From the UHGV virus genome UHGV-0455966: a DNA stretch of 41,149 nt; one strand, written 5' to 3'. A model generated the notes under the pieces. It worked only from the letters and a program-made list of their open reading frames with translations, ran no database searches and was not told where the DNA came from. This stretch comes from a virus. The position numbers and the translations under genes are program-made. This document shows positions 1 through 41,149 of this stretch, one piece after another; the first letter of the stretch is position 1; each line of letters opens with the position of its first letter.

Positions 1-1057
1 GGTCTTCAAAGTCAGCGATACGCTTCGCCATAATCAGATCGTCGGTAGTCTTGTTGCCAGTCCACAGCACCTTACTGTGTAGCCCCTGCCGCAGGTATAT
101 CACCGCGTCATCAACGCCTGAATATGCCGGGTCAACACCGATTATCACCGGAGCATGCGCCACCTGCGCAGCGGTTACCACCCGTTTCATTGCCTCATCA
201 GTAAGACCGGTAGGGATAAACTGCAATTCAGATGCATCAGGGAATATGCCGCGCACACGGATTTTAACGAAGTCGCTGTCTTCCCCGTAGTCATCAACCC
301 ATTTCTGCAACTGCTGTTTGTTAGTGCCTTCCACCGTCCGGCTGTCAATCTGCGCAGTTTTCCAGCGGTGTTTATATTTGCGGAAACATTCGCGGAAACG
401 CCCGGTGTTACGTGTAGGGTTTCCGAATGCCACCCAGATAATCTCAGTGTCTTCGTCCGTCAGCGCACCCTCTGCTACCTCCCACACCAGATCGGCAATG
501 TTGGATGCTTCGTCGAATACCACGATGATGCGTTTGCGCTCGTTGTGTAGTCCGGCGAATGCCTCAGTGTTGTGCTCAGACCAGGGGATTGCGTCAGCTC
601 GCCACCGCTTGTCGTGCCCAGGGTCATTGCTGTACATCGCGGTAGCGGTACAGGTAAACCAGTCTTTCGTGATAGCAAGGTTCGACCACTTGATAATTTC
701 CGGCCAGGTCTTCGTTCGTAGCTGGTTGTCGGTGTTGGCGGTCACCACGACCTTACAATCCTCGCAAGTGGACATGCCCCAGTTGATCAGCATTGAGATG
801 AATGCGGATTTACCAATACCGTGACCCGAAGCGCGTGCCAGCATAAGCGGCTGATAGCGCGTCTCTGGATTCTGCAGGTGATCACGTATCTCTCGGAACG
901 CATCAGCCTGCCACTGACGTGGACCGGTGGCATGTGCTAATTCAGTCCCCTCTTCCCCCCACGGGAACGCATAGAGGGCATAGCCAAGCGGATCGTGAGT
1001 GAACCCTGCAATATCCTCGATCAACTGCTCTTCAGGAGATAACGCTGTATCTGTCAC
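1..1057 (-). CDS. terL: terminase large subunit, N-terminal 352 codons (continues at 40737..41149)
   Basis: GTG start at 1057 overlapping terS stop (GTGA), RBS AGGATGG upstream; Walker A ARASGHGIGKS and Walker B VVFDEAS in translation; frame runs off position 1 leaving 1 nt. Confidence 0.85.
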   Translation of the reverse strand, partial: MTDTALSPEEQLIEDIAGFTHDPLGYALYAFPWGEEGTELAHATGPRQWQADAFREIRDHLQNPETRYQPLMLARASGHGIGKSAFISMLINWGMSTCEDCKVVVTANTDNQLRTKTWPEIIKWSNLAITKDWFTCTATAMYSNDPGHDKRWRADAIPWSEHNTEAFAGLHNERKRIIVVFDEASNIADLVWEVAEGALTDEDTEIIWVAFGNPTRNTGRFRECFRKYKHRWKTAQIDSRTVEGTNKQQLQKWVDDYGEDSDFVKIRVRGIFPDASELQFIPTGLTDEAMKRVVTAAQVAHAPVIIGVDPAYSGVDDAVIYLRQGLHSKVLWTGNKTTDDLIMAKRIADFED

Positions 1058-1650
1058 TGATTACCATCCTGACGTTCTTTGAGTCGCTTCCTGGCTGCCG
1101 CTATGCGATCAGCAATTGTCACATTCACATTAACATCCAGGCGTTCTTTGAATGCGTTGACGTCGACGTGCTTACCAATCAGTTCGAGGTTCTTCACCTT
1201 GTCAGGCCATTTAATTTTTTTGAGGATTGTCTCTATCGAATCCTCGTTCATGTTCATGATGGTCGATGACAGATCAAAGCCACTAAGCGTAGTGCGCCAG
1301 ATTTTCGGCCACTCACGGATTGGTTTAAGGCTCCCATCGTCGTTGAGGATATCGATCACGTCCATCTGGTCGATCTCCACCAGGCGCATGAGAACGTAAT
1401 CAGCACTGACGCGCATTCGTTTGTTGCGCTCCTCCATCAACTCGGCAATCCGTTTTTGAATGCGTTCATCGCGCATCATGACACTGGCTTTAACTGCCGC
1501 TGTATTTGGGGAGAATCCTGCGTTAATCGCTGCCTGAGTCTGGTTTTCAGGCGTTTTGATGTATGACTGGCAATAAGCCTCCTGCATTGCTGTGAGCGGC
1601 TTAAATTGCGTTGATTTGCGTTTATAGGTTTTAGGTTCAGCAGGCATCAT
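1054..1650 (-). CDS. terS: terminase small subunit
   Basis: Translation from MMPAEPKTYKRK...TAMQEAYCQSYIKTPENQTQAAINAGFSPNTAAVKA resembles Terminase_2-type small subunits; immediately upstream of terL. Track ORF start (1728) is probably an over-extension through a terminator and repeat. Confidence 0.7.
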   Translation of the reverse strand: MMPAEPKTYKRKSTQFKPLTAMQEAYCQSYIKTPENQTQAAINAGFSPNTAAVKASVMMRDERIQKRIAELMEERNKRMRVSADYVLMRLVEIDQMDVIDILNDDGSLKPIREWPKIWRTTLSGFDLSSTIMNMNEDSIETILKKIKWPDKVKNLELIGKHVDVNAFKERLDVNVNVTIADRIAAARKRLKERQDGNQ

Positions 1651-1654
1651 AACC

Positions 1655-1690
1655 ACCGTGGTAATAGTTACCGTTGTGGTAATAGTACCA
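1655..1690. repeat. tandem direct repeat GTGGTAATAGT(T)ACC x2 directly upstream of terS start
   Basis: Two 15-nt copies spaced 18 bp at 1658-1672 and 1676-1690, each containing GGTAA-N3-(T)TACC; lies between a minus-strand terminator and the terS ATG. Confidence 0.6.
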
Positions 1691-1691
1691 T

Positions 1692-1719
1692 GCAAAATAA
1701 AGCCGCCATAGTTGGCGGC
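1692..1719 (-). terminator. intrinsic terminator separating early/nin-like genes from terS
   Basis: Hairpin GCCGCC-atagtt-GGCGGC (1702-1719); on the minus strand followed by UUUAUUUU. Confidence 0.55.
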
Positions 1720-1768
1720 AGTATTCAAAACCCATCAAATTCATCATGCATAATCTACTCGTAACATG

Positions 1769-2110
1769 TCACACTATTAATTTCGTTTCATGCCAGCCTT
1801 TAGTCACCCAGCATTGCGAGTCACCATTACACGGGCATGAATTAACTGGAACTCTCTCGCCGCACTTACCGCAACGTTTTCTGCTGATCGATTTTATACG
1901 CCCGTGCACGCGTGCATCATCCTGGCGGATCAATAACGCTATATACTCACCAAATTCGTAAGGCGCACGCCCGGGGCGACGCGTGGCACAGTTACGCTCC
2001 AGCATTTCAATTTCCTGAGCATCAAGCACAATTTCCAGCTTACGCACACCAGATGCAGCTTGTCTGGCTCTCTGAGCGGCTTTGCGCTCTGCTGCTGATT
2101 TAGCCATCAA
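1769..2110 (-). CDS. hypothetical zinc-ribbon protein, possible late-gene regulator
   Basis: C-terminal CGKCGERVPVNSCPCNGDSQC cysteine cluster; sits immediately upstream of the terminator/terS, where lambdoid late regulators usually lie. Confidence 0.45.
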   Translation of the reverse strand: MMAKSAAERKAAQRARQAASGVRKLEIVLDAQEIEMLERNCATRRPGRAPYEFGEYIALLIRQDDARVHGRIKSISRKRCGKCGERVPVNSCPCNGDSQCWVTKGWHETKLIV

Positions 2111-2608: not shown

Positions 2609-3447
2609 GGATTCACCTCCTGCGGCGGTTCTGGTAGCGGCATCCAGAACAAGGCGTTCCCTAACCACGATAAAGTGCCGTCGCTCAACTCCACGTATTC
2701 CCCTTGTACCTGTCCTGCCATATACTCGCCGTGCTTTGAATAAATTAAAATCCAATCATCTTGAGGGGGCATTCGCTCACTACAGCTTATCCAACCATCC
2801 GGAGTTACCGGAGAGTTGCCTGCCAGTCTACGCAAAACAGCCTTAACAGCCTCAATACGGTCATCATCGTAACTTTCCGCCGTATCTATGCGGTCGAGCA
2901 TGATGATTGCGTTATCAATATCAGGATTGCCGGTCCACTCATTACCGCGATTGGATTCGGCAGCCTGGTTGCCGCGTACTGGTTGATTGTCGGCTTTACC
3001 CAGTCTGTCGTCGCTGCATGAATGCCCTTCCAGCCAGGCCAATGCTTGTCGCATGAAATACGCAATATGTTTGCCGTGGTAATCGTCTTCATCGATGTGA
3101 AAAGCGATACTACGAATGTATTCAATTGCGTTTTCAATGGCCTCTAACGCTATCGGCGCTGGCGGAGTGGTATATAGTTTTCGACATTTGTATATCCAAC
3201 CGGCATGGTCAGGCGTGTCTGTAAAACGCAAATCGTCTTCGTAGCACTCACGACTACGTTCTTTCCATTCCGTCCACGGAACACCGCTATTCCAGGTGGG
3301 GCGAGTGCAGGACTGATACAGAACAGGCTCTGCTTCCAGTGATGCCAGCGCAATTCGTGCCAGTTCCATTTGTTCGCCACGGGTAAGCCCGTTATCAAGC
3401 GGATTTTTAATGAATAATTCGATACGTTCTTTGGTAATAGTGGTCAT
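2605..3447 (-). CDS. hypothetical protein with DUF551-like C-terminal domain
   Basis: C-terminal ...LSWLGNALFWMPLPEPP matches the WMPLPxPP signature recalled for DUF551 prophage proteins. Confidence 0.55.
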   Translation of the reverse strand: MTTITKERIELFIKNPLDNGLTRGEQMELARIALASLEAEPVLYQSCTRPTWNSGVPWTEWKERSRECYEDDLRFTDTPDHAGWIYKCRKLYTTPPAPIALEAIENAIEYIRSIAFHIDEDDYHGKHIAYFMRQALAWLEGHSCSDDRLGKADNQPVRGNQAAESNRGNEWTGNPDIDNAIIMLDRIDTAESYDDDRIEAVKAVLRRLAGNSPVTPDGWISCSERMPPQDDWILIYSKHGEYMAGQVQGEYVELSDGTLSWLGNALFWMPLPEPPQEVNP

Positions 3448-5451: not shown

Positions 5452-5568
5452 GATTTACCTCTAAGGTAATTAAAAACCACATAAGACACGAAATCAATAG
5501 AGTTTAGAATATTTTGTTACCTGATAGGTAATTATTGAGACGTAAAAAAATGCGCTATCGCGCTGGTA

Positions 5569-6369
5569 TTACTTGATAAATCCTGCCACCTTTCCCCGCC
5601 TGTATTCCTCCATCAGCCACTGCGCCGGTGTTATTCCCCCAAGGGTGGCGGCGTTAGGCATGCACCCGAAACTTCGCCCTGGTGGATGGTAAACGTCTCT
5701 CCCTGTGTCCGGAGGCGTACTCATGGGTTCTGGCTTTGCCTGTATGCTGATCACCGGATCGGGTATCTGCTGTCCGGAAGCCACCTTTTTCGCCCAATCA
5801 TCGAGCAGCCTGCGCGCGTGTTTCTCAACCTCAATCTCGCTAAGCTGGCGCTGATACATTGCACGGCGGGTATCACATACGACCCAGTACATAACCGGAT
5901 GTCGCCACGGGAATCTTTCGGGACCACCAGGATATAAACTTTTTTCCTTGCTGTACCGGTGAAACTCCGCCATCACATCGTCAATGGTGACGCCAAGAAC
6001 CATCTTGCTGTCTTTACACCACTTGATGAATTGCCCTGGCGACGGCCAGAACGGAGACTCACTGGCGCGGGCGTGGCGCATACCAGCAGAAACCTGTTCA
6101 CGGGTTCGGATCCCCCCTTCGGCAAACGCAGCAATCCACTGCTGTTTTGCAGCAACTTCCTGCTCTGGCGTCTTCAGGTTGGTTACCACTGCCGCCGGAA
6201 ACAGTTGTTTCAGCTGTTTAAAAAGGGCATCAACAAGCCTCTCTGCTGACATGTTCACCACATTGTCATTGTTGACGTACTGATGCTCATAACCTGACAT
6301 GCGAGAAAGGGCTTCTCCGTCACGGTTTTGTATCGCAGTAAAAACGTTGTTCACAAGAAATCCTCCCAT
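5569..6369 (-). CDS. replication protein P-like (helicase loader)
   Basis: ...AAFAEGGIRTREQVSAGMRHARASESPFWPSPGQFIKWCKD aligns by eye with lambda P ...NGITTMEQVNAGMRVARRQNRPFLPSPGQFVAWCRE; start may be a later Met since it overlaps the O-like gene end. Confidence 0.7.
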   Translation of the reverse strand: MGGFLVNNVFTAIQNRDGEALSRMSGYEHQYVNNDNVVNMSAERLVDALFKQLKQLFPAAVVTNLKTPEQEVAAKQQWIAAFAEGGIRTREQVSAGMRHARASESPFWPSPGQFIKWCKDSKMVLGVTIDDVMAEFHRYSKEKSLYPGGPERFPWRHPVMYWVVCDTRRAMYQRQLSEIEVEKHARRLLDDWAKKVASGQQIPDPVISIQAKPEPMSTPPDTGRDVYHPPGRSFGCMPNAATLGGITPAQWLMEEYRRGKVAGFIK

Positions 6370-7166
6370 GCTTCAGGGCTGTTCCAGTGCGGAACGTTGT
6401 TATCAGGTAATGTTGATTGCTTCTGTCTGCTAATCTGCAGCCGCCTTGCCAGCTTCTGCTCCCACTGTGCCTGATGGTATGCCTTACCCTCAGCCATCCA
6501 GTAAATTCTGAACTCTGCAAGTTCCTGTGCCGTTGGCAGACTGTCCAGGTAGATCCCCTGCAATGAGCTTTTCCGAAGAAAGTCATCTGATGGCTGCCAT
6601 TGTTCATGCATGACAAATTTGCCTAATTGCCCTGGCCCACCAGGAGGAACAAAGTTATTCATCACGGCGTTGTTTGCGCCGGGGTCATGAGGCACAGAAT
6701 CCCCGCTTTTTGTCCTGCTCTCCCTCTCTTGGTTAAATGACTGGTTATATGACTGGTTCTGGATCCCGTTTTTGGGATCATTCAACATCCCGTTTTTGGG
6801 ATCATTCAACATCCCGTTTTTGGGTATATTCCCGTTTTCGGTAACATTACCGTTTTCGGGTCCATTACCCCCTTCCCGGTTGCCTTTAATGTTCCCGTTT
6901 TTGGTTATATTAAGAGAGAAAACCCGCACTCTTTTCGTCGCTCCCTTTCTCTCTCCGGTATCTGAAATAAGCCCCATTTTCATGAGCGATATAAGCCCGG
7001 CCTGCACGGTTTTTTTATTCAGGCAAGTGTCTTTAACGAGGCGTTCTATGCTGGGGTAGCAGAGGTTATATTCATCGGCTCTGTCAGCCATCGAGAGCAG
7101 TATGAGCTTTAATGACGAGCTACCTGGATCTGTCTCCCAGGCCCAATCTGTTGCATGTCTGCTCAT
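6351..7166 (-). CDS. replication initiator, O-like, with internal origin iterons
   Basis: N-terminal HTH-like region, Asn/Gly-rich repeat KNGMLNDPKNGMLNDPKNG encoded by DNA iterons, directly upstream of P-like gene. Confidence 0.65.
   Translation of the reverse strand: MSRHATDWAWETDPGSSSLKLILLSMADRADEYNLCYPSIERLVKDTCLNKKTVQAGLISLMKMGLISDTGERKGATKRVRVFSLNITKNGNIKGNREGGNGPENGNVTENGNIPKNGMLNDPKNGMLNDPKNGIQNQSYNQSFNQERESRTKSGDSVPHDPGANNAVMNNFVPPGGPGQLGKFVMHEQWQPSDDFLRKSSLQGIYLDSLPTAQELAEFRIYWMAEGKAYHQAQWEQKLARRLQISRQKQSTLPDNNVPHWNSPEAWEDFL
6763..6914. repeat. putative replication origin iterons inside the O-like gene
   Basis: About 6 copies of TCCCGTTTT(T)GG at roughly 20-24 bp spacing (two perfect 24-mers ATCCCGTTTTTGGGATCATTCAAC at 6763 and 6787), followed by AT-rich stretch. 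Confidence 0.65.
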
Positions 7167-7532: not shown

Positions 7533-7763
7533 TCATGAGTAGAAGAAGTATGCCAGTTCTGCTTTTGAGCGCAGCCATTGTCTTGTTTTACAGGCTTTAA
7601 AAAGCCCATTCATCAATACTTTACCTGGCATTTTGCGCTTACCTGTTAAGTGAGTCTGGATATAGTGACTCGTCGTTCCGGCTTCCTGTGCGAAGGCTTC
7701 ACGCTCATCCGGAGTAAGTGCAAGCCAGTGCTTTTTGAAATCGAAATGTCCGTTATCGCTCAT
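7533..7763 (-). CDS. Cro-like HTH regulator
   Basis: HTH-like DEREAFAQEAGTTSHYIQTHLTGKRK; divergent from repressor; first gene of the operon leading to O/P. Confidence 0.6.
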   Translation of the reverse strand: MSDNGHFDFKKHWLALTPDEREAFAQEAGTTSHYIQTHLTGKRKMPGKVLMNGLFKACKTRQWLRSKAELAYFFYS

Positions 7764-7917
7764 AGCTATTGCCTGATATTTATTTCAGATAATAAATATT
7801 CACCCATAAGGTAACAAAAATCAAGGATAGTTACCTATGAGGTGCATTTACCTGTTGGGTAATATTGCTTTAAATTGAATCATCTACTGATTCATATATG
7901 AGGCGATTTTCCAGAAA
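7764..7917. promoter_or_regulatory. divergent immunity control region with operator-like palindromes
   Basis: TTACC-tgttg-GGTAA at 7848-7862 (perfect), TTACC-tatga-GGTGC at 7831-7845, extra half-sites; AT-rich promoter-like hexamers on both strands. Confidence 0.6.
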
Positions 7918-8502
7918 ATGAAAAGTATCCAGGACGTCCGCAGGCAAAATCTCAACGACTTGATCGACCGTGAATTCAATGGTGTTCAGACGCGGATGGC
8001 AGAAAAACTTGGAACTCAGGCAAATCTGGTAAACCGCTGGGCTCTTGGCAAGAAGGTTATCGGCGACCAGGTTGCACGAAAAATTGAAGCTGCCGCCAAT
8101 AAACCCCGTAACTGGCTTGATATTGATCGCTCGCTTTCTCAGGAGGGTTTTCAGCCTGTCGGCCCGAGTGATATAGGTCAGCTGGCGGCTCACAACCTGG
8201 AACGCTGGATGAGCGAAAGCCGCGACCTTTCAACGCAGGGAAAACTACACCGCGCATCCGGCGTCGCCCAGGTGACAATCAGCCGCCTGTTAAACAATGA
8301 GGTCAGCGTTTCCATTTCCACCCTGGAGAATGTTGCATCCGCATTCGGGCGTCACGGCTATGAATTACTGATTCACCCGCACGACCCTGCGACCATCAAC
8401 TATGATCGCTCGCGCTACGCATTGTTACCCGAAACCGAGAAAGCAAAGATCGAAAGTTACATTGAATTTGTCATCAACCAGAACGAAAAAAACAAACAAT
8501 AA
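7918..8502 (+). CDS. prophage repressor with two HTH domains, no S24 peptidase motif
   Basis: HTH 1 QTRMAEKLGTQANLVNRWALGKK, HTH 2 LHRASGVAQVTISRLLNNEVSVSISTLENVASAFG; no GDSM/Ser-Lys dyad region; divergent from Cro-like gene. Confidence 0.7.
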   Translation: MKSIQDVRRQNLNDLIDREFNGVQTRMAEKLGTQANLVNRWALGKKVIGDQVARKIEAAANKPRNWLDIDRSLSQEGFQPVGPSDIGQLAAHNLERWMSESRDLSTQGKLHRASGVAQVTISRLLNNEVSVSISTLENVASAFGRHGYELLIHPHDPATINYDRSRYALLPETEKAKIESYIEFVINQNEKNKQ

Positions 8503-8559: not shown

Positions 8560-8636
8560 TTACCTAATGGGTAATTTTTTTAACTCATATCTATTGACAT
8601 CAAACCAGATACGCATAATTATTACCTCAACGGTAA
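8560..8636 (+). promoter_or_regulatory. pL-like early-left promoter flanked by two operator palindromes
   Basis: TTGACA at 8594-8599; palindromes TTACC-taatg-GGTAA (8560-8574) and TTACC-tcaac-GGTAA (8622-8636). Confidence 0.55.
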
Positions 8637-18700: not shown

Positions 18701-18715
18701 TTACCTTTCAGGTAA
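18701..18715. promoter_or_regulatory. palindrome TTACC-tttca-GGTAA
   Basis: Perfect 15-mer, identical to the site at 39249-39263; AACCACATA box ~32 bp upstream. Confidence 0.6.
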
Positions 18716-18752
18716 TTTGCAAAACGTGCTGGATAGCAAACAAATTATTTGC

Positions 18753-18772
18753 TACTGTATAAATATACAGTT
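18753..18772 (+). promoter_or_regulatory. LexA (SOS) box over the -10 region of the small antirepressor-like gene
   Basis: TACTGTATAAATATACAGTT = CTGT-N8-ACAG, matching the E. coli LexA consensus TACTGTATATATATACAGTA at 18 of 20 positions; 20 bp upstream of ATG 18792. Confidence 0.7.
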
Positions 18773-18791
18773 ATTGCATGGAGAAGATAAG

Positions 18792-19049
18792 ATGCAGCAG
18801 TATCACTATCCACTGGAAGACGGATTTACCGAAAGGATTCACACGCCGGGAGGCGTCAGGTCACTGGTGGAGGGATCGCACTTGATGAAATTACTCCGGG
18901 ATCTCGATAAGGATGGATTTAATGTCGATGGCCCACTTGCCGAACTGACTGCACTGATTAACTACGTCACCAGCTCACAGATGTCTATGCAGGATCTGCA
19001 AACACATCTCGACTATTGTGCCGAACAATTACGAAAACAAACCCGGTAA
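18792..19049 (+). CDS. small antirepressor-like protein (SOS-controlled candidate)
   Basis: GGAGAAG RBS; C-terminal LMKLLRDLDKDGFNVDGPLAELTALINYV...LQTHLDY matches the C-terminus of the BRO-N antirepressor at 20435-21130. Confidence 0.55.
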   Translation: MQQYHYPLEDGFTERIHTPGGVRSLVEGSHLMKLLRDLDKDGFNVDGPLAELTALINYVTSSQMSMQDLQTHLDYCAEQLRKQTR

Positions 19050-35265: not shown

Positions 35266-36258
35266 TTACACCACGCGGGCTTCTGTTTCCAGAAGCGCAT
35301 CAGTTTCACGGATTGGTACACCACGGAATGACGTCCACCACTCGCCTTCAGTCTCTTTTACGCTAATCGCCAGAGATGTTTTCTCCAGAGACTGCAGATC
35401 AAGAGCCTGGCCTACAGTGCGGTTCATGTAGAACACCGGGCGACCCATGCCACGGTTTGGAATGCGATGCAGTGCTTTAACCATCAACTTCGCAATATTT
35501 GCGGCAGAGGAAGGTTCTGAAAGATTGCTGACATCGATGTTTGCAATGCGAACAACATAACGCCAGTCACGCAGAGCAAGTCCGTTATCCCATTTGTAAT
35601 GGGTGCGATAGCCTTCGTACTTGCCGCCATTAGCATCTTCCAGTGTCACCTGGCCTTTATCTTCCATCTGGATGCCAGCCTTCTGCCCTTTCGGGAAGAT
35701 GCCATGCACGGTGTTTTCGCCCCACACTACTAACCAGATTGAGGTGTTATCTGTACCCGTGCCACCAGCATCAATGATGTTCTGAGCATTACCCGCAGAC
35801 AGGCTGGAATAGCGGGAGGACAGTCCCATAAACTGCTGAGGGTTAACGCTGGAATCACCATAAAACAGTGTCTGCGCCATCTGCTGATTCATCGCTTCAA
35901 TAAATGCGCGGTCTTCAGACAGGCGGAATTCGGCGGTATTACCGTTCAGATCAGCCAGTGACTTATCGACTTCAGCATAGGTTTCCAGCATTCCAACGGA
36001 ATCGGTGACCTGCACTGTGGTTGATTTGCTTGGCTGTACGCCATAGTTCAGCAAACGCCAGGTGGCTGAAGGTAAACCAGAACGAATGGTGGTTCGGTGT
36101 CCGGTAGGAAGGTTCCCTTCGACAAAAGGCATATCCTGAAGGATCGGGTTAGTTTGACCGAGAAGCTCGATAATCTTATCGACTTTCCCGTTTGGATCGA
36201 CGCGCTTACCCCAGTCAGCCAGCGTTAGCGCAGTTAAGCCTTTAACAGCCATTGTCAT
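35266..36258 (-). CDS. major capsid protein
   Basis: 330 aa, follows scaffold gene, strong codon bias; T7 gp10-like size and position. Confidence 0.7.
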   Translation of the reverse strand: MTMAVKGLTALTLADWGKRVDPNGKVDKIIELLGQTNPILQDMPFVEGNLPTGHRTTIRSGLPSATWRLLNYGVQPSKSTTVQVTDSVGMLETYAEVDKSLADLNGNTAEFRLSEDRAFIEAMNQQMAQTLFYGDSSVNPQQFMGLSSRYSSLSAGNAQNIIDAGGTGTDNTSIWLVVWGENTVHGIFPKGQKAGIQMEDKGQVTLEDANGGKYEGYRTHYKWDNGLALRDWRYVVRIANIDVSNLSEPSSAANIAKLMVKALHRIPNRGMGRPVFYMNRTVGQALDLQSLEKTSLAISVKETEGEWWTSFRGVPIRETDALLETEARVV

Positions 36259-39197: not shown

Positions 39198-39263
39198 ACC
39201 ACATATGATTTATTTATCGTAGATAGTTGACATTTAACGCACAAATTATTACCTTTCAGGTAA
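39198..39263 (+). promoter_or_regulatory. promoter-like module: AACCACATA box, TTGACA, palindrome TTACC-tttca-GGTAA
   Basis: AACCACATA 39198-39206, TTGACA 39227-39232, palindrome 39249-39263; upstream of structured region and tRNA. Confidence 0.5.
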
Positions 39264-39849: not shown

Positions 39850-39865
39850 GCCTGATGACCACAAA

Positions 39866-39883
39866 TTACCTTAAAGGTATAAT
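39866..39883 (+). promoter_or_regulatory. imperfect palindrome TTACC-ttaaa-GGTAT overlapping a perfect TATAAT
   Basis: TATAAT at 39878-39883 ends 1 nt before ATG 39885. Confidence 0.45.
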
Positions 39884-39884
39884 C

Positions 39885-40733
39885 ATGAAAAACTTTAAGG
39901 TAATTAGTATGTTCGAATCGTTCAAAGAGCTGTTTTTATCTACTGCCAATACTGCCGTGCATCGAGCTAAAAACCCTGTGCTAGGTGCTTTTGTTATGTC
40001 CTGGTGCGCCTTCAACTGGAAATCACTTCTTTATCTATTTTTTAGCAAATCAAATATAATAGATAAAATTTCATACATCTCAGATAACAGCACATGGAAA
40101 ACTGTTATGTTTTATCCATGCTTATCTGTAATTACTATCTGCTGCCTATTACCATGGGTAAACAATATCATTAACGTATGGCAAGCAAAGCCTCTTGATA
40201 ATAATGACTCAATCGAAAATCACCGGAAGGCAAGAAAAATACAACGTGAAACACGGCTACAGAGATTGCTGGCTAAAAAAGACATTACTTACGAAAAAGT
40301 AAAAACAGGCGCTGAAAAAAACATTCAAGACATGAAAGAGGAAATAATTCTTTCAAAAGACAGAATGGGACAACTCACATCTGAATTGAAAGAGAGGGAG
40401 ACAGAACTGCGCGCAGCACAAGCTCGTATTTTAGAATTATCTAAGGTTATTCATGAAACAACATCTAAACTAGAAAATCTAGAAAAAGCCCACAAAAATT
40501 TAAAAAACGAATATGAGTCCTATAAGAAAAACATTCCTTTGGCAACAAATAATACAATTGCTAATGGGTTTGTAGGTCTAAAATCATTACAAGACCTTAA
40601 TGAGTCCGTAAAGAAACTTGGCGTTACTGGAATTAACAATCCAGAAATCAGTACATTATTGAATAATCCTCTAGTAAATATAAATGGTGGTTTAAATTCC
40701 ACCCATCAAAGAAAATCAAAAACACAAAAGTAA
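39885..40733 (+). CDS. AT-rich accessory protein: two N-terminal TM helices + long coiled coil, unknown function
   Basis: ATG 39885 with AAGG RBS (track start 39813 lies inside a terminator); opposite strand to flanking late genes; low GC. Confidence 0.6.
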   Translation: MKNFKVISMFESFKELFLSTANTAVHRAKNPVLGAFVMSWCAFNWKSLLYLFFSKSNIIDKISYISDNSTWKTVMFYPCLSVITICCLLPWVNNIINVWQAKPLDNNDSIENHRKARKIQRETRLQRLLAKKDITYEKVKTGAEKNIQDMKEEIILSKDRMGQLTSELKERETELRAAQARILELSKVIHETTSKLENLEKAHKNLKNEYESYKKNIPLATNNTIANGFVGLKSLQDLNESVKKLGVTGINNPEISTLLNNPLVNINGGLNSTHQRKSKTQK

Positions 40734-40736
40734 AAA

Positions 40737-41149
40737 TCATTCAAATGGGTCATAGTCTGTTATAGCCCTGCCCTGCTGCTGCCGTGGGTCATTAGTTTTC
40801 TTGGCTACCGGGAACGCAAACGTCAGCAGTAGCGCATCGCCTTTACCCGGCGAACGCCCAAGCCGCTCCTTGATATCTTCCTTCGGTTCGATAACGATTT
40901 TACCGTCCACTCGAACTTTGTACTCTGCCGCCGACAGGTCGTCTGCTGTTTCCTGGTCATCCAGCATGCCGCCCAGCCTCAGCCATGTCTTGCATGAATT
41001 GAACATCTCCCCACGCTTGTTGAGCATCTGCGGGTCAGTAGACGCGCCACCGAACGGAACAAGTTGCCATGTACGACCCCATCCGTCACCGATTGACTTC
41101 AGACCGGTTCCGTAACCGAAGTCGATGAACACCGCGTCAGCCTGATACT
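40737..41149 (-). CDS. terL: terminase large subunit, C-terminal part (continues from window start)
   Basis: Frame continuous with 1-1057: position 1 (C) plus 41149-41148 (AG) form codon CAG joining ...RIADFED to YQADAVFIDFGYGTG... Confidence 0.8.
   Translation of the reverse strand, partial: YQADAVFIDFGYGTGLKSIGDGWGRTWQLVPFGGASTDPQMLNKRGEMFNSCKTWLRLGGMLDDQETADDLSAAEYKVRVDGKIVIEPKEDIKERLGRSPGKGDALLLTFAFPVAKKTNDPRQQQGRAITDYDPFE

What the first reader, a model, noticed from the sequence alone, without database searches (positions are those of the whole stretch)
1655..2110. Terminator plus tandem repeat immediately upstream of terS, next to a zinc-ribbon small protein
On the minus strand a hairpin followed by a U-run (1692-1719) precedes two tandem copies of GTGGTAATAGT(T)ACC (1658-1690) that abut the terS start. 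The gene just upstream (1769-2110) ends in a Cys cluster (CGKCG...CPC...C). This is the position where lambdoid phages place the late regulator and its target site, but no lambda Q homologue is recognisable. The repeat could instead be a pac-type packaging signal.
Basis: partly seen in the sequence, partly recalled or inferred. Interest (0 to 1): 0.45.

Follow-up and report, generated by a model that had tools for sequence, protein, structure and literature searches.

The report
Prophage repressor operators guarding terS
The "tandem repeat" in front of the small-terminase gene is a pair of binding sites for the phage's own lysogeny repressor, placed just after a transcription terminator; this is an ordinary arrangement already annotated in phage epsilon15, while the neighbouring Cys-rich protein is a separate DNA-binding protein that carries its own conserved palindrome.

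Summary
The window holds a terminator (1719-1692, minus strand), two repeat copies (1690-1658) abutting terS (ATG 1650), and a 112-aa Cys-rich protein (2107-1769). The window is a circularly permuted phiV10/epsilon15-type (Uetakevirus) genome.

The repeat is not a Q-type target. It is two adjacent 15-bp inverted repeats, TTACC-N5-GGTAA (1682-1668 and 1664-1650). This motif occurs 16 times in the window against 0.6 expected, in regulatory gaps, including both sides of the repressor gene (7918-8502, a homologue of SPC32H Rep, PDB 5D50). Epsilon15's GenBank record already labels the equivalent terS site "repressor". The motif tracks Rep, not the 112-aa protein: 5-9 copies in loci that include a Rep homologue, and none in 55 loci that have only the small protein.

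A conserved TGnTAnnAT (extended -10-like) element abuts the first operator. I therefore infer a Rep-repressed terS-terL promoter.

The 112-aa protein has a ribbon-helix-helix fold plus a Cys cluster, with no Q or Ogr/Delta match. Its gene carries a different 12-bp palindrome, GTGAC-N2-GTCAC, at its stop codon across many prophage types. Its function is unknown.

The main finding is ordinary. The protein-palindrome cassette is the only possibly new item.

The parts
1769..2107 (-). 112-aa protein, homologue of epsilon15 gp49, phiV10 p55 and N15 gp46. N-terminal basic helix plus ribbon-helix-helix core, C-terminal Cys cluster CxxC-x8-CxC-x5-C. Last gene of the early-right operon.
1761..1772 (.). 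12-bp palindrome GTGACATGTTAC overlapping the stop codon of the 112-aa gene. It has one mismatch to the family consensus GTGAC-AT-GTCAC. Candidate binding site of the 112-aa protein.
   Evidence: Found in the window at one mismatch. A perfect copy lies within -15..+60 nt of the stop in 43 of 64 homologous loci, at offsets -3, +3, +5, +11 and +24. There are 34 further perfect copies in 1.18 Mb against 1.1 expected. Also present at the N15 gp46 stop and upstream of terS in a Vibrio phage.
1692..1719 (-). Rho-independent terminator ending the early-right operon: stem GCCGCC/GGCGGC, loop AACTAT, tail TTTATTTTG.
   Evidence: Terminator scan. Fold energy -14.5 kcal/mol. The structure is kept with a different stem sequence in Rahnella-type relatives and through G-U pairs in Buttiauxella. 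Annotated as a terminator in the phiV10 and epsilon15 records.
1682..1690 (-). TGGTACTAT, an extended -10-like element (TGnTAnnAT). Its last T is the first base of operator O1. Inferred promoter of the terS-terL operon.
   Evidence: In 18 of 19 aligned relatives TGnTAnnAT abuts the operator, with variation only at the non-critical positions (TACTAT, TAGTAT, TATGAT). In the 19th (Samsonia) the same motif lies 6 nt downstream of an operator. No transcript data are available.
1668..1682 (.). Operator O1, TTACC-ACAAC-GGTAA on the minus strand, with perfect arms.
   Evidence: Motif search. Equivalent to the epsilon15 protein_bind 'repressor' feature at 12..27. Conserved in all 19 relatives, with variable spacer and constant arms.
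1650..1664 (.). Operator O2, TTACC-ACGGT-GGTTA on the minus strand, with one arm mismatch. It covers the terS Shine-Dalgarno sequence (GGTGG, 1657-1653) and the A of the ATG.
   Evidence: Motif search. An imperfect second site at the same position in Escherichia, Salmonella, Citrobacter and Klebsiella relatives. SPC32H OR also has operators 17 bp apart.
1054..1650 (-). terS (small terminase, Terminase_2 family), first gene of the terS-terL unit. terL continues across the window ends.
   Evidence: Pfam PF03592 at E=1e-29. phrog_51. The window is circularly permuted relative to phiV10.
7918..8502 (+). Immunity repressor Rep (HTH, tetramerising type). Inferred binder of all TTACC-N5-GGTAA sites.
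   Evidence: Match to PDB 5D50 (SPC32H Rep) at E=4e-42 over the full length. HTH_3 domain. Flanked by OR sites 7800-7862 and OL sites 8560-8636.
7800..7862 (.). OR region between rep and the cro-like gene (7533-7763). Sites at 7800-7814 and 7848-7862, plus a weaker middle site.
8560..8636 (.). OL region downstream of rep and upstream of the early-left operon. Sites at 8560-8574 and 8622-8636, the latter abutting a TTGACA-N17-AATTAT promoter-like sequence.
   Evidence: Syntenic with the epsilon15 and SPC32H OL sites.
5455..5531 (.). Two operator sites between the helicase-loader gene and the resolvase gene, inside the early-right operon.
   Evidence: Syntenic with the epsilon15 site 35906-35922 and the SPC32H sites 35972 and 36034.
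39249..39263 (.). Operator site upstream of the portal/structural operon.
   Evidence: Syntenic with SPC32H site 3175-3189, upstream of gene 004 and the portal gene.
18701..18715 (.). Operator site between the tailspike gene and the antirepressor (ant) homologue.
   Evidence: Syntenic with SPC32H site 20013.
13847..13861 (.). Operator site (1 mismatch) just upstream of the integrase gene (12554-13804, minus strand).
   Evidence: Syntenic with SPC32H site 26960.

Best explanation
Window 1650-1719 is the early/late boundary module of a phiV10/epsilon15-type temperate podophage.

- A rho-independent terminator (1719-1692) ends the early-right operon after the 112-aa gene.
- Immediately downstream lies a conserved extended -10-like element, TGGTACTAT (1690-1682).
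- Its last base begins the first of two adjacent 15-bp operators, TTACC-N5-GGTAA: O1 at 1682-1668 and O2 at 1664-1650.
- O2 covers the terS ribosome-binding site and the first base of the start codon.

The operators belong to a 16-site regulon of the phage's CI-type repressor Rep (7918-8502). In the lysogen, a Rep tetramer is expected to occupy O1 and O2. This would block initiation at the terS-terL promoter and any read-through. When Rep is inactivated by the antirepressor, the promoter is freed.

Shown here: the anatomy, the motif enrichment, the intergenic and syntenic placement of the sites, the association of the motif with Rep rather than with the 112-aa protein, and the conservation pattern.

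Inferred: physical binding by Rep, promoter activity, and the repression itself.

The 112-aa protein is a separate ribbon-helix-helix/Cys-cluster DNA-binding protein. Its likely site is the palindrome GTGAC-N2-GTCAC at its own stop codon (1761-1772), not the repeat.
For: - TTACC-N5-GGTAA at one mismatch or fewer occurs 16 times in the window, against 0.60 expected and a maximum of 4 in 100 shuffles.
- Nine of the 16 sites are strictly intergenic even under an over-called gene set that covers 94% of the sequence. The others fall in dubious ORFs.
- The sites flank the repressor gene at OR and OL.
- Epsilon15's record annotates five such sites, including the one at 12..27 before terS, as protein_bind 'repressor' with the same consensus.
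- The window's repressor matches the crystallised SPC32H Rep at E=4e-42.
- SPC32H has 18 sites. All 10 perfect ones are intergenic and lie at syntenic positions: terS, portal operon, ant/tailspike, lysis, int, OL x3, OR x3, replication/resolvase x2.
- Across 68 genomic loci with a homologue of the 112-aa protein, the motif occurs 5-9 times in each locus that includes a Rep homologue. It occurs twice in two terS-bearing loci that are cut off before the immunity region, and 0 times in all 55 other loci.
- The element stays directly upstream of terS even where morons are inserted between the 112-aa gene and terS.
- In the alignment of 19 relatives, the arms are constant, the spacers vary, TGnTAnnAT is conserved, and the terminator structure is kept with different stems.
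- In-frame stops in relatives show that the region is not translated.
- There is no Rfam match.
Against: - No binding or transcript data could be consulted. The two SPC32H Rep papers are not held in the library, and the epsilon15 'repressor' features may themselves be predictions.
- There is no recognisable -35 element; that position falls in the terminator stem. The promoter rests on a conserved -10-like motif only.
- A promoter controlled only by Rep would give no obvious early/late timing. An unidentified activator, or read-through, may therefore contribute.
- All Uetakeviruses found carry a Rep homologue. No heteroimmune relative was available to test whether the terS site co-varies with repressor specificity.
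- A cro-like protein could bind the same sites.
Confidence: 0.78

Rival explanations
1. Q-like late control. The 112-aa protein is the late regulator. It acts at this boundary so that transcription passes the terminator at 1719-1692 into terS, for example by binding its palindrome at 1761-1772 and modifying RNA polymerase. The repeat would be part of its target.
For: - The gene is always the last early-right gene before terS in Uetakeviruses.
- The protein is DNA-binding in type, with an RHH fold.
- Its palindrome lies 40-60 nt upstream of the terminator.
- A second palindrome follows the terL terminator in relatives.
- In a Vibrio phage the palindrome lies just before terS.
- No Q, Ogr or Mor homologue was found among the early genes.
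- The C-terminal half shows weak similarity to the RNA-polymerase-binding TraR family.
Against: - The repeat has the Rep-operator consensus and never accompanies the protein outside Rep-bearing phages.
- Homologues occur in N15, which has its own Q and late promoter; in P2-like phages; in lambdoid nin regions before NinB; and next to integrases.
- There is no conserved promoter between the palindrome and the terminator, and the distance varies from about 20 nt to more than 600 nt where morons are inserted.
- Some relatives lack the terminator altogether (L011, L016, BUCT554).
- There is no Pfam match to Q or Ogr/Delta in 57 members.
- The acidic N-terminal tip of TraR has no counterpart.
Confidence: 0.1
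2. Packaging signal. The repeats are a pac-type recognition site for TerS, located just upstream of terS.
For: The position next to terS is conserved. TerS proteins of the Terminase_2 family are known to bind repeated sites near their own gene (SPP1 pacL/pacR; this is my own knowledge and was not checked here). Public records of these phages start at or near this point, though this is probably by convention.
Against: - The motif is not unique to this place. It occurs 16 times in the window and 18 times in SPC32H, at promoter-type positions including OR and OL.
- Record start points differ between phages: the gene's stop codon in phiV10, after the terminator in epsilon15, and other positions elsewhere. 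That argues for arbitrary linearisation.
- No data on virion ends were found.
Confidence: 0.06
3. RNA-level control. In the mRNA the palindromic units fold into hairpins that hide the terS Shine-Dalgarno sequence and set the translation level.
For: In the predicted fold of 1790-1630, CCAC pairs with GUGG of the SD, around a GGUAA/UUACC hairpin. The z-score is -3.67, although the terminator contributes most of the energy. Leader folds are -8 to -9 kcal/mol in the window and in epsilon15.
Against: - Rahnella-type relatives have a single operator, a -2.2 kcal/mol leader and no SD pairing.
- The conserved positions are the operator arms, which are found all over the genome in non-leader contexts.
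- There is no Rfam family.
- No covariation test is possible, because the arms are fixed for another reason.
Confidence: 0.05
4. The repeat is coding. terS starts at TTG 1728, as annotated for phiV10, and the repeat encodes GTITTTVTITTV.
For: An open frame runs from 1728 in this window. The phiV10 RefSeq record annotates terS in this way.
Against: - That ORF would run through the terminator.
- Six relatives have in-frame stops 2-13 codons before the conserved ATG.
- Epsilon15 and SPC32H annotate the ATG.
- The Terminase_2 match starts after the ATG.
Confidence: 0.01

Closest known systems
Epsilon15 'repressor' binding sites and the SPC32H Rep/Ant switch (Uetakevirus immunity system)
   Same: The operator consensus is the same (ATTACC-N5-GGTAAT) and the site lies at the same position before terS. 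It is annotated in NC_004775.2 at 12..27. The repressor is homologous to PDB 5D50, and an ant homologue is present.
   Different: - In this window the second operator is better formed, which makes the pair look like a tandem direct repeat.
- The epsilon15 record lists only 5 sites, whereas 16-18 are detectable here and in SPC32H.
- Binding at the terS site has not, to my knowledge, been shown experimentally.
Dispersed-operator repressors: P1 C1 operators and mycobacteriophage L5 gp71 stoperators (my own knowledge)
   Same: One immunity repressor has many sites spread over the genome, including in front of or inside late units. Silencing of the prophage therefore does not rest on OR and OL alone.
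   Different: Here the sites are symmetric 15-bp palindromes in intergenic promoter regions. P1 and L5 sites are asymmetric, and L5 stoperators act within transcribed regions in one orientation. The proteins are not related.
Lambda Q / PR' / qut / tR' late antitermination module
   Same: The gene order is the same: last early-right gene, short gap, intrinsic terminator, late genes.
   Different: There is no Q homologue and no conserved promoter or pause element upstream of the terminator. The repeated element lies downstream of the terminator and is a repressor operator. The upstream protein also occurs in a phage that has Q (N15).
Ribbon-helix-helix regulators (Arc, Mnt, CopG, MetJ, MatP)
   Different: - It carries an extra C-terminal long helix and Cys cluster.
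- Its site has a 2-bp spacer, not 3-bp.
- Profile-profile comparison with MatP gives a probability of 0.7%.
- The site sits at the 3' end of the gene rather than at a promoter.
DksA/TraR-type zinc-finger proteins (F plasmid TraR, E. coli YbiI; phage-encoded TraR-like proteins)
   Same: Residues 48-105 (long helix, then CxxCG..(I/L)P......G...C) align with TraR and YbiI. These are the top three hits of a PDB-wide profile search at E=0.02-0.03. hhalign gives a probability of 81%.
   Different: The fourth Cys is not at the canonical position and the acidic N-terminal tip is absent. There is no Pfam PF01258 match in any of 57 members, and fold searches do not recover TraR. The hhalign value is biased, because the targets were picked from the top hits.

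Membership tests
Uetakevirus Rep operator (CI-type repressor binding site) | A 15-bp inverted repeat with the same arms as the sites flanking the repressor gene (OR and OL). | tested here: met
   O1 has perfect TTACC/GGTAA arms and O2 has one mismatch. The same arms occur at 7800, 7848, 8560 and 8622, next to rep.
Uetakevirus Rep operator (CI-type repressor binding site) | The motif is over-represented, intergenic and syntenic among related phages. | tested here: met
   16 sites against 0.6 expected. Intergenic placement. Syntenic with SPC32H and epsilon15.
Uetakevirus Rep operator (CI-type repressor binding site) | The motif co-occurs with the cognate repressor gene. | tested here: met
   5-9 sites in every locus that includes a Rep homologue, and 0 in 55 loci without Rep or terS. 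Rep homologues are found only in Uetakevirus records.
Uetakevirus Rep operator (CI-type repressor binding site) | Physical binding by Rep and repression of the adjacent promoter. | not testable with these tools
   This needs EMSA, footprinting or ChIP, plus reporters. The SPC32H papers are not held in the library.
Rho-independent terminator | A GC-rich stem-loop followed by a U tract, conserved as a structure. | tested here: met
   7-bp stem with 6 GC pairs plus TTTATTTTG. Fold energies of -13 to -16 kcal/mol in four sequence variants, including a different stem in Rahnella-type relatives.
Sigma-70 extended -10 promoter | A TGnTATAAT-like element with conserved T-12, A-11 and T-7. | tested here: met
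   TGGTACTAT in the window. TGnTAnnAT abuts the operator in 18 of 19 relatives and is present in the 19th.
Sigma-70 extended -10 promoter | A mapped transcription start about 7 nt downstream. | not testable with these tools
   No transcript data are available.
Lambda Q-type antitermination module | A protein homologous to a Q family. | tested here: not met
   No Pfam or NCBIfam Q match for the 112-aa protein or for 56 relatives. No Q-like PHROG among the early genes.
Lambda Q-type antitermination module | A constitutive promoter with a Q-binding and pause element upstream of the terminator. | tested here: not met
   Only a 9/12 promoter-like match (1772-1743) in this window. The stretch is not conserved in sequence or length, and is interrupted by morons in relatives.
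Ogr/Delta zinc-finger late activators | An Ogr_Delta domain with a Cys4 finger of spacing CX2C-X22-CX4C (spacing from my own knowledge). | tested here: not met
   No Pfam hit at E<=1 in 57 members. The spacing here is CX2C-X8-CXC-X5-C.
Ribbon-helix-helix (CopG/Arc/MetJ) superfamily, for the 112-aa protein | A strand-helix-helix core. | tested here: met
MatP/matS system | Homology to MatP and a 13-bp site GTGACRNYGTCAC. | tested here: not met
   hhalign probability 0.7%. The site here is 12 bp with a 2-bp spacer.
DksA/TraR C4 zinc-finger family | The zf-dskA_traR domain with four Cys residues. | tested here: inconclusive
   PDB profile search gives E=0.02-0.03 for TraR and YbiI. hhalign gives 81%. 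There is no Pfam hit, only C79, C82 and C99 are conserved, and fold searches do not find TraR.
pac site of headful-packaging phages | A single recognition or cleavage site bound by TerS, defining the first virion end. | not testable with these tools
   No end-mapping data were found. The motif itself is not unique to this locus.

The most novel reading that the evidence does not exclude
The 112-aa protein family (epsilon15 gp49, phiV10 p55, N15 gp46) may be an undescribed class of phage DNA-binding protein.

- It combines a ribbon-helix-helix domain with a TraR-like helix and zinc finger.
- It would recognise a 12-bp palindrome, GTGAC-N2-GTCAC, that travels with the gene.
- In Uetakeviruses this palindrome brackets the terS-terL cassette next to both terminators.
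- In lambdoid prophages it also sits inside the cII/YdaT-like early gene.

The protein could act as a transcriptional boundary or read-through switch, by roadblock or by contact with RNA polymerase. That would time or insulate terminase expression and feed back on the early operon.
Probability: 0.2. Interest if true: 0.6.

Novelty: new member of a known kind. Interest (0 to 1): 0.3.

Why it matters
For the finding as given, it matters little. It is a standard repressor-operator and terminator boundary that was already annotated in epsilon15.

It does correct two things:
- the phiV10-type terS annotation, which starts too far upstream;
- the impression that these phages hide a Q-like system at this position.

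It also shows that in this phage group every late transcription unit carries its own Rep operator. These units are terS-terL and the portal/structural, tailspike/ant and (in SPC32H) lysis units. Prophage silencing of late genes is therefore likely direct, rather than relayed through a late regulator. This raises a testable question: what sets late timing after induction?

The by-product is a widespread RHH/Cys-cluster protein whose gene carries its own palindrome. It would give a handle on an uncharacterised accessory gene that is common in enterobacterial prophages.

Tried and rejected
- **Q, Ogr/Delta and other late-regulator families.** No Pfam, NCBIfam or PHROG support.
- **Fold searches.** Foldseek against PDB and BFVD gave only an RHH protein and a fragment of the same family. 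The afdb50 library was not available.
- **Rfam.** No match on 1400-2300.
- **Literature.** The SPC32H Rep papers (PMC3807360, PMC4983836) and the epsilon15 genome paper are not held. The ZX5 and PAS61 papers say nothing about this region or about packaging. The palindrome sequence does not appear in the library.
- **Locus search with the divergent alignment A1.** It failed. The closer alignment A2 worked.
- **Reverse test of the palindrome in viral contigs.** 41 of 128 14-mer hits lie at the 3' end of a homologue of the 112-aa protein. The remaining hits cannot be interpreted, because several hundred chance hits are expected in a collection of that size (my estimate).
- **The repeat as a motif of its own.** GGTANCTATTACCAC and CTATTACCAC do not recur elsewhere in the window. 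Only the inverted-repeat reading reveals the dispersed family.
- **A heteroimmune Uetakevirus to test co-variation.** None exists in the collections searched.
Full report
**What the window is.** The 41,149-bp window is a circularly permuted complete genome of a phiV10/epsilon15-type temperate podophage (genus Uetakevirus). phiV10 positions 1-1768 align to window 1768-1, and phiV10 1769-2111 align to window 41149-40807. Region 1400-2400 is 95-97% identical to E. coli O157 typing phages 9 and 10, PAS61 and phiV10. The genes relevant to the finding lie on the minus strand.

**Checking the observation.**
- A 7-bp GC-rich stem (GCCGCC/GGCGGC) with the tail TTTATTTTG lies at 1719-1692. It folds at -14.5 kcal/mol.
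- An 11-nt exact direct repeat occurs at 1658-1668 and 1676-1686, with 18-nt spacing.
- terS begins at ATG 1650, behind GGTGG. The Terminase_2 match starts at residue 19.
- The upstream ORF ends in CGKCG...CPC...C.

Two corrections are needed. The upstream gene starts at ATG 2107 and encodes 112 aa, like its homologues. The long TTG-start terS ORF annotated in phiV10 is not real: six relatives have in-frame stops 2-13 codons before the conserved ATG, and that ORF would run through the terminator.

**What the repeat really is.** Each "copy" is itself palindromic (GGTA...TACC). Read as inverted repeats, the segment contains two adjacent 15-bp sites, TTACC-N5-GGTAA. O1 lies at 1682-1668 with perfect arms. 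O2 lies at 1664-1650 with one mismatch and covers the Shine-Dalgarno sequence and the A of the ATG.

The epsilon15 GenBank record annotates the equivalent site (12..27, just before terS) as protein_bind "repressor, lysogeny". It does the same for four other sites next to the repressor gene and in the early-right operon, all reading ATTACC-N5-GGTAAT.

In the window the motif (one mismatch or fewer) occurs 16 times, against 0.60 expected and a maximum of 4 in 100 shuffles. The sites lie in the following places:
- between the repressor gene (7918-8502) and the cro-like gene (7800, 7848, plus a weaker middle site);
- downstream of the repressor, before the early-left operon (8560, 8622);
- between the helicase-loader and resolvase genes (5455, 5517);
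- before the integrase gene (13847);
- between the tailspike and the antirepressor homologue (18701);
- before the portal operon (39249);
- in a few other gaps.

The repressor matches the crystallised SPC32H Rep (PDB 5D50) at E=4e-42 over its full length. SPC32H itself has 18 sites. All 10 perfect ones are intergenic and lie at syntenic positions, including terS, the portal operon, ant/tailspike, the lysis operon, int, OL (3), OR (3) and the replication/resolvase gap.

**Which protein owns the motif?** I fetched 69 genomic loci that encode relatives of the 112-aa protein; 68 could be scored. In each locus that includes a Rep homologue the motif occurs 5-9 times. It occurs twice in two terS-bearing loci that are cut off before the immunity region. 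In all 55 loci that have the small protein but neither Rep nor this terS, it occurs zero times. Rep homologues are confined to Uetakevirus records (36 phage records, 42-100% identity). The motif therefore tracks Rep, not the small protein.

In relatives where a moron is inserted between the small-protein gene and terS (L010, L011, L016, L017, L057), the operator element remains directly upstream of terS.

**Anatomy and likely mechanism.** An anchored alignment of 19 phages and prophages from Escherichia, Salmonella, Citrobacter, Klebsiella, Enterobacter, Kluyvera, Buttiauxella, Rahnella and others shows four things.
- The terminator is kept as a structure with different stems (AACCGCC/GGCGGTT in the Rahnella type, G-U pairs in Buttiauxella; -13 to -16 kcal/mol). 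It is lost only where a UmuD-like moron abuts the element.
- A TGnTAnnAT element (TACTAT, TAGTAT or TATGAT) is present in 18 of 19. Its last T is the first base of O1. The Samsonia locus has the same motif 6 nt after an operator.
- O1 has constant arms and variable spacers.
- O2 is imperfect and overlaps the SD and ATG in the enteric clade. Rahnella-type loci have one operator, with the SD (GGAGG) inside its spacer.

This pattern fits an extended -10 promoter for terS-terL, with operators spanning roughly -7 to +26. A Rep tetramer that engages two palindromes at once would block both initiation and read-through. (Tetramer binding is cited in PMC9638917. The details of the SPC32H work are from my own memory, because those papers are not held.) SPC32H OR also has two operators 17 bp apart. 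Promoter activity and Rep binding here are inferences; no transcript or binding data could be examined.

**The 112-aa protein.** It belongs to phrog_536, which is labelled "transcriptional regulator". It has no Pfam or NCBIfam family, and only 152 clusters in a 1.8-billion-protein library.

A family profile gives TraR (twice) and YbiI as its best PDB hits (E=0.02-0.03) over residues 49-110. hhalign against those two segments gives 81%, but that figure is biased by the way the targets were chosen. Pfam and the fold searches do not confirm it. There is no similarity to Q or Ogr/Delta.

The family is not tied to late operons. N15 gp46 lies mid-operon in a phage that has its own Q and late promoter. 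In P2-like Yersinia phages the gene follows gpA. In lambdoid prophages it precedes NinB-like genes or sits next to xis/int.

**A second motif, found on the way.** A 12-bp palindrome, GTGAC-N2-GTCAC (mostly GTGACATGTCAC), overlaps or closely follows the stop codon of this gene.
- It is perfect in 43 of 64 loci within -15..+60 nt of the stop, at offsets -3, +3, +5, +11 and +24. Chance is about 7e-5 per locus.
- There are 34 further perfect copies in 1.18 Mb, against 1.1 expected.
- It is present at the N15 gp46 stop, and just before terS in a Vibrio phage.
- In Uetakevirus loci a second copy follows the terL terminator, and SPC32H has a third next to ant.
- In several lambdoid loci a copy lies inside a cII/YdaT-like early gene.
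- In this window the copy at 1761-1772 has one mismatch, and no copy after terL was found at one mismatch or fewer.
- In a scan of viral contigs, 41 of 128 occurrences of the 14-mer lie at the 3' end of a homologue.

The half-sites equal those of the MatP site matS (GTGACRNYGTCAC; PMC6907758), but the spacer differs and profile comparison with MatP is negative. The palindrome is not mentioned in the paper library. I infer, with moderate confidence, that it is this protein's binding site. What binding achieves is unknown; possibilities are a boundary or roadblock, regulation of the next unit, or feedback on the early operon.

**Rival readings.**
- *Q-like control by the small protein.* This keeps some appeal because of gene order, the palindrome-terminator proximity and the absence of any recognised late regulator. 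A PerC-like activator exists at 11417-11716. But the repeat is not the small protein's target, no conserved promoter precedes the terminator, and the family's wider contexts argue against a dedicated late role.
- *A pac site.* This cannot be excluded without end mapping, but the motif is dispersed and explained otherwise.
- *An SD-masking RNA structure.* This is possible in the enteric clade but absent in Rahnella-type relatives.
- *A coding reading.* This is excluded.

**Verdict.** The finding is real but ordinary: a terminator followed by a pair of immunity-repressor operators, and probably a Rep-controlled promoter, in front of terS. It is already annotated for epsilon15. The only potentially new item is the cassette formed by the RHH/Cys-cluster protein and its own palindrome, which deserves a simple binding test.

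Noticed in passing
window 1761-1772; L009 (SPC32H) 2145, 19634, 38629; L010-L019 about 2.2-3.2 kb downstream of the 112-aa gene: A 12-bp palindrome, GTGACATGTCAC, marks the stop codon of the 112-aa gene. In relatives it also follows the terL terminator, so that it brackets terS-terL. SPC32H has a third copy next to ant. This window has only the first copy, with one mismatch.
   Followed up: partly
L025, L034, L040, L048, L054, L056, L065, L066 (4-7 kb upstream of the 112-aa gene): In lambdoid-type prophages a perfect GTGACATGTCAC lies inside a cII/YdaT-like gene of about 150 aa, just after the cro-like gene. It is encoded as (R/C)DMS(H/Q) and is conserved across Providencia, Morganella, Xenorhabdus and Yersinia.
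   Followed up: no
L010, L017 and L011, L016, L080 (BUCT554), between the palindrome and terS: Morons with perfect LexA boxes (TACTGT-N8-ACAGTA) in their promoters are inserted at this boundary. One type is UmuD-like, the other an unknown 85-aa protein. Where the UmuD-like moron is present, the terminator is missing.
   Followed up: no
window 6773-6816 (+), inside gene 6351-7166 (-): Two tandem 24-bp copies (TGGGATCATTCAACATCCCGTTTT) lie inside the replication-initiator gene, matching the protein repeat NGMLNDPK. They are probably origin iterons.
   Followed up: no
window 18701-18790: A Rep operator lies upstream of the antirepressor homologue (18789-19049, +). It is followed by a TACTGTAT sequence that looks like the start of a LexA box, consistent with dual Rep/LexA control of ant.
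   Followed up: no
window 7800-7862: The OR region has three sites at 24-bp spacing. The middle one (GCACC-N5-GGTAA) is weaker. SPC32H OR has three sites at 17- and 30-bp spacing.
   Followed up: partly
window 11417-11716 (+): A PerC-family transcriptional activator homologue (epsilon15 gp31 type) is encoded in the early-left operon. It is the only other candidate positive regulator found.
   Followed up: no
L002 (phiV10 NC_007804.2) 41-715: The RefSeq terS of phiV10 is annotated from a TTG that lies upstream of the terminator and operators. The start is probably wrong by 26 codons.
   Followed up: yes
window 1 and 41149: The window ends join inside terL, so the sequence is a complete, circularly permuted phage genome. 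The segment after terL (about 39850-40806) differs from phiV10 and holds a 306-aa ORF of unknown function (phrog_4780).
   Followed up: partly
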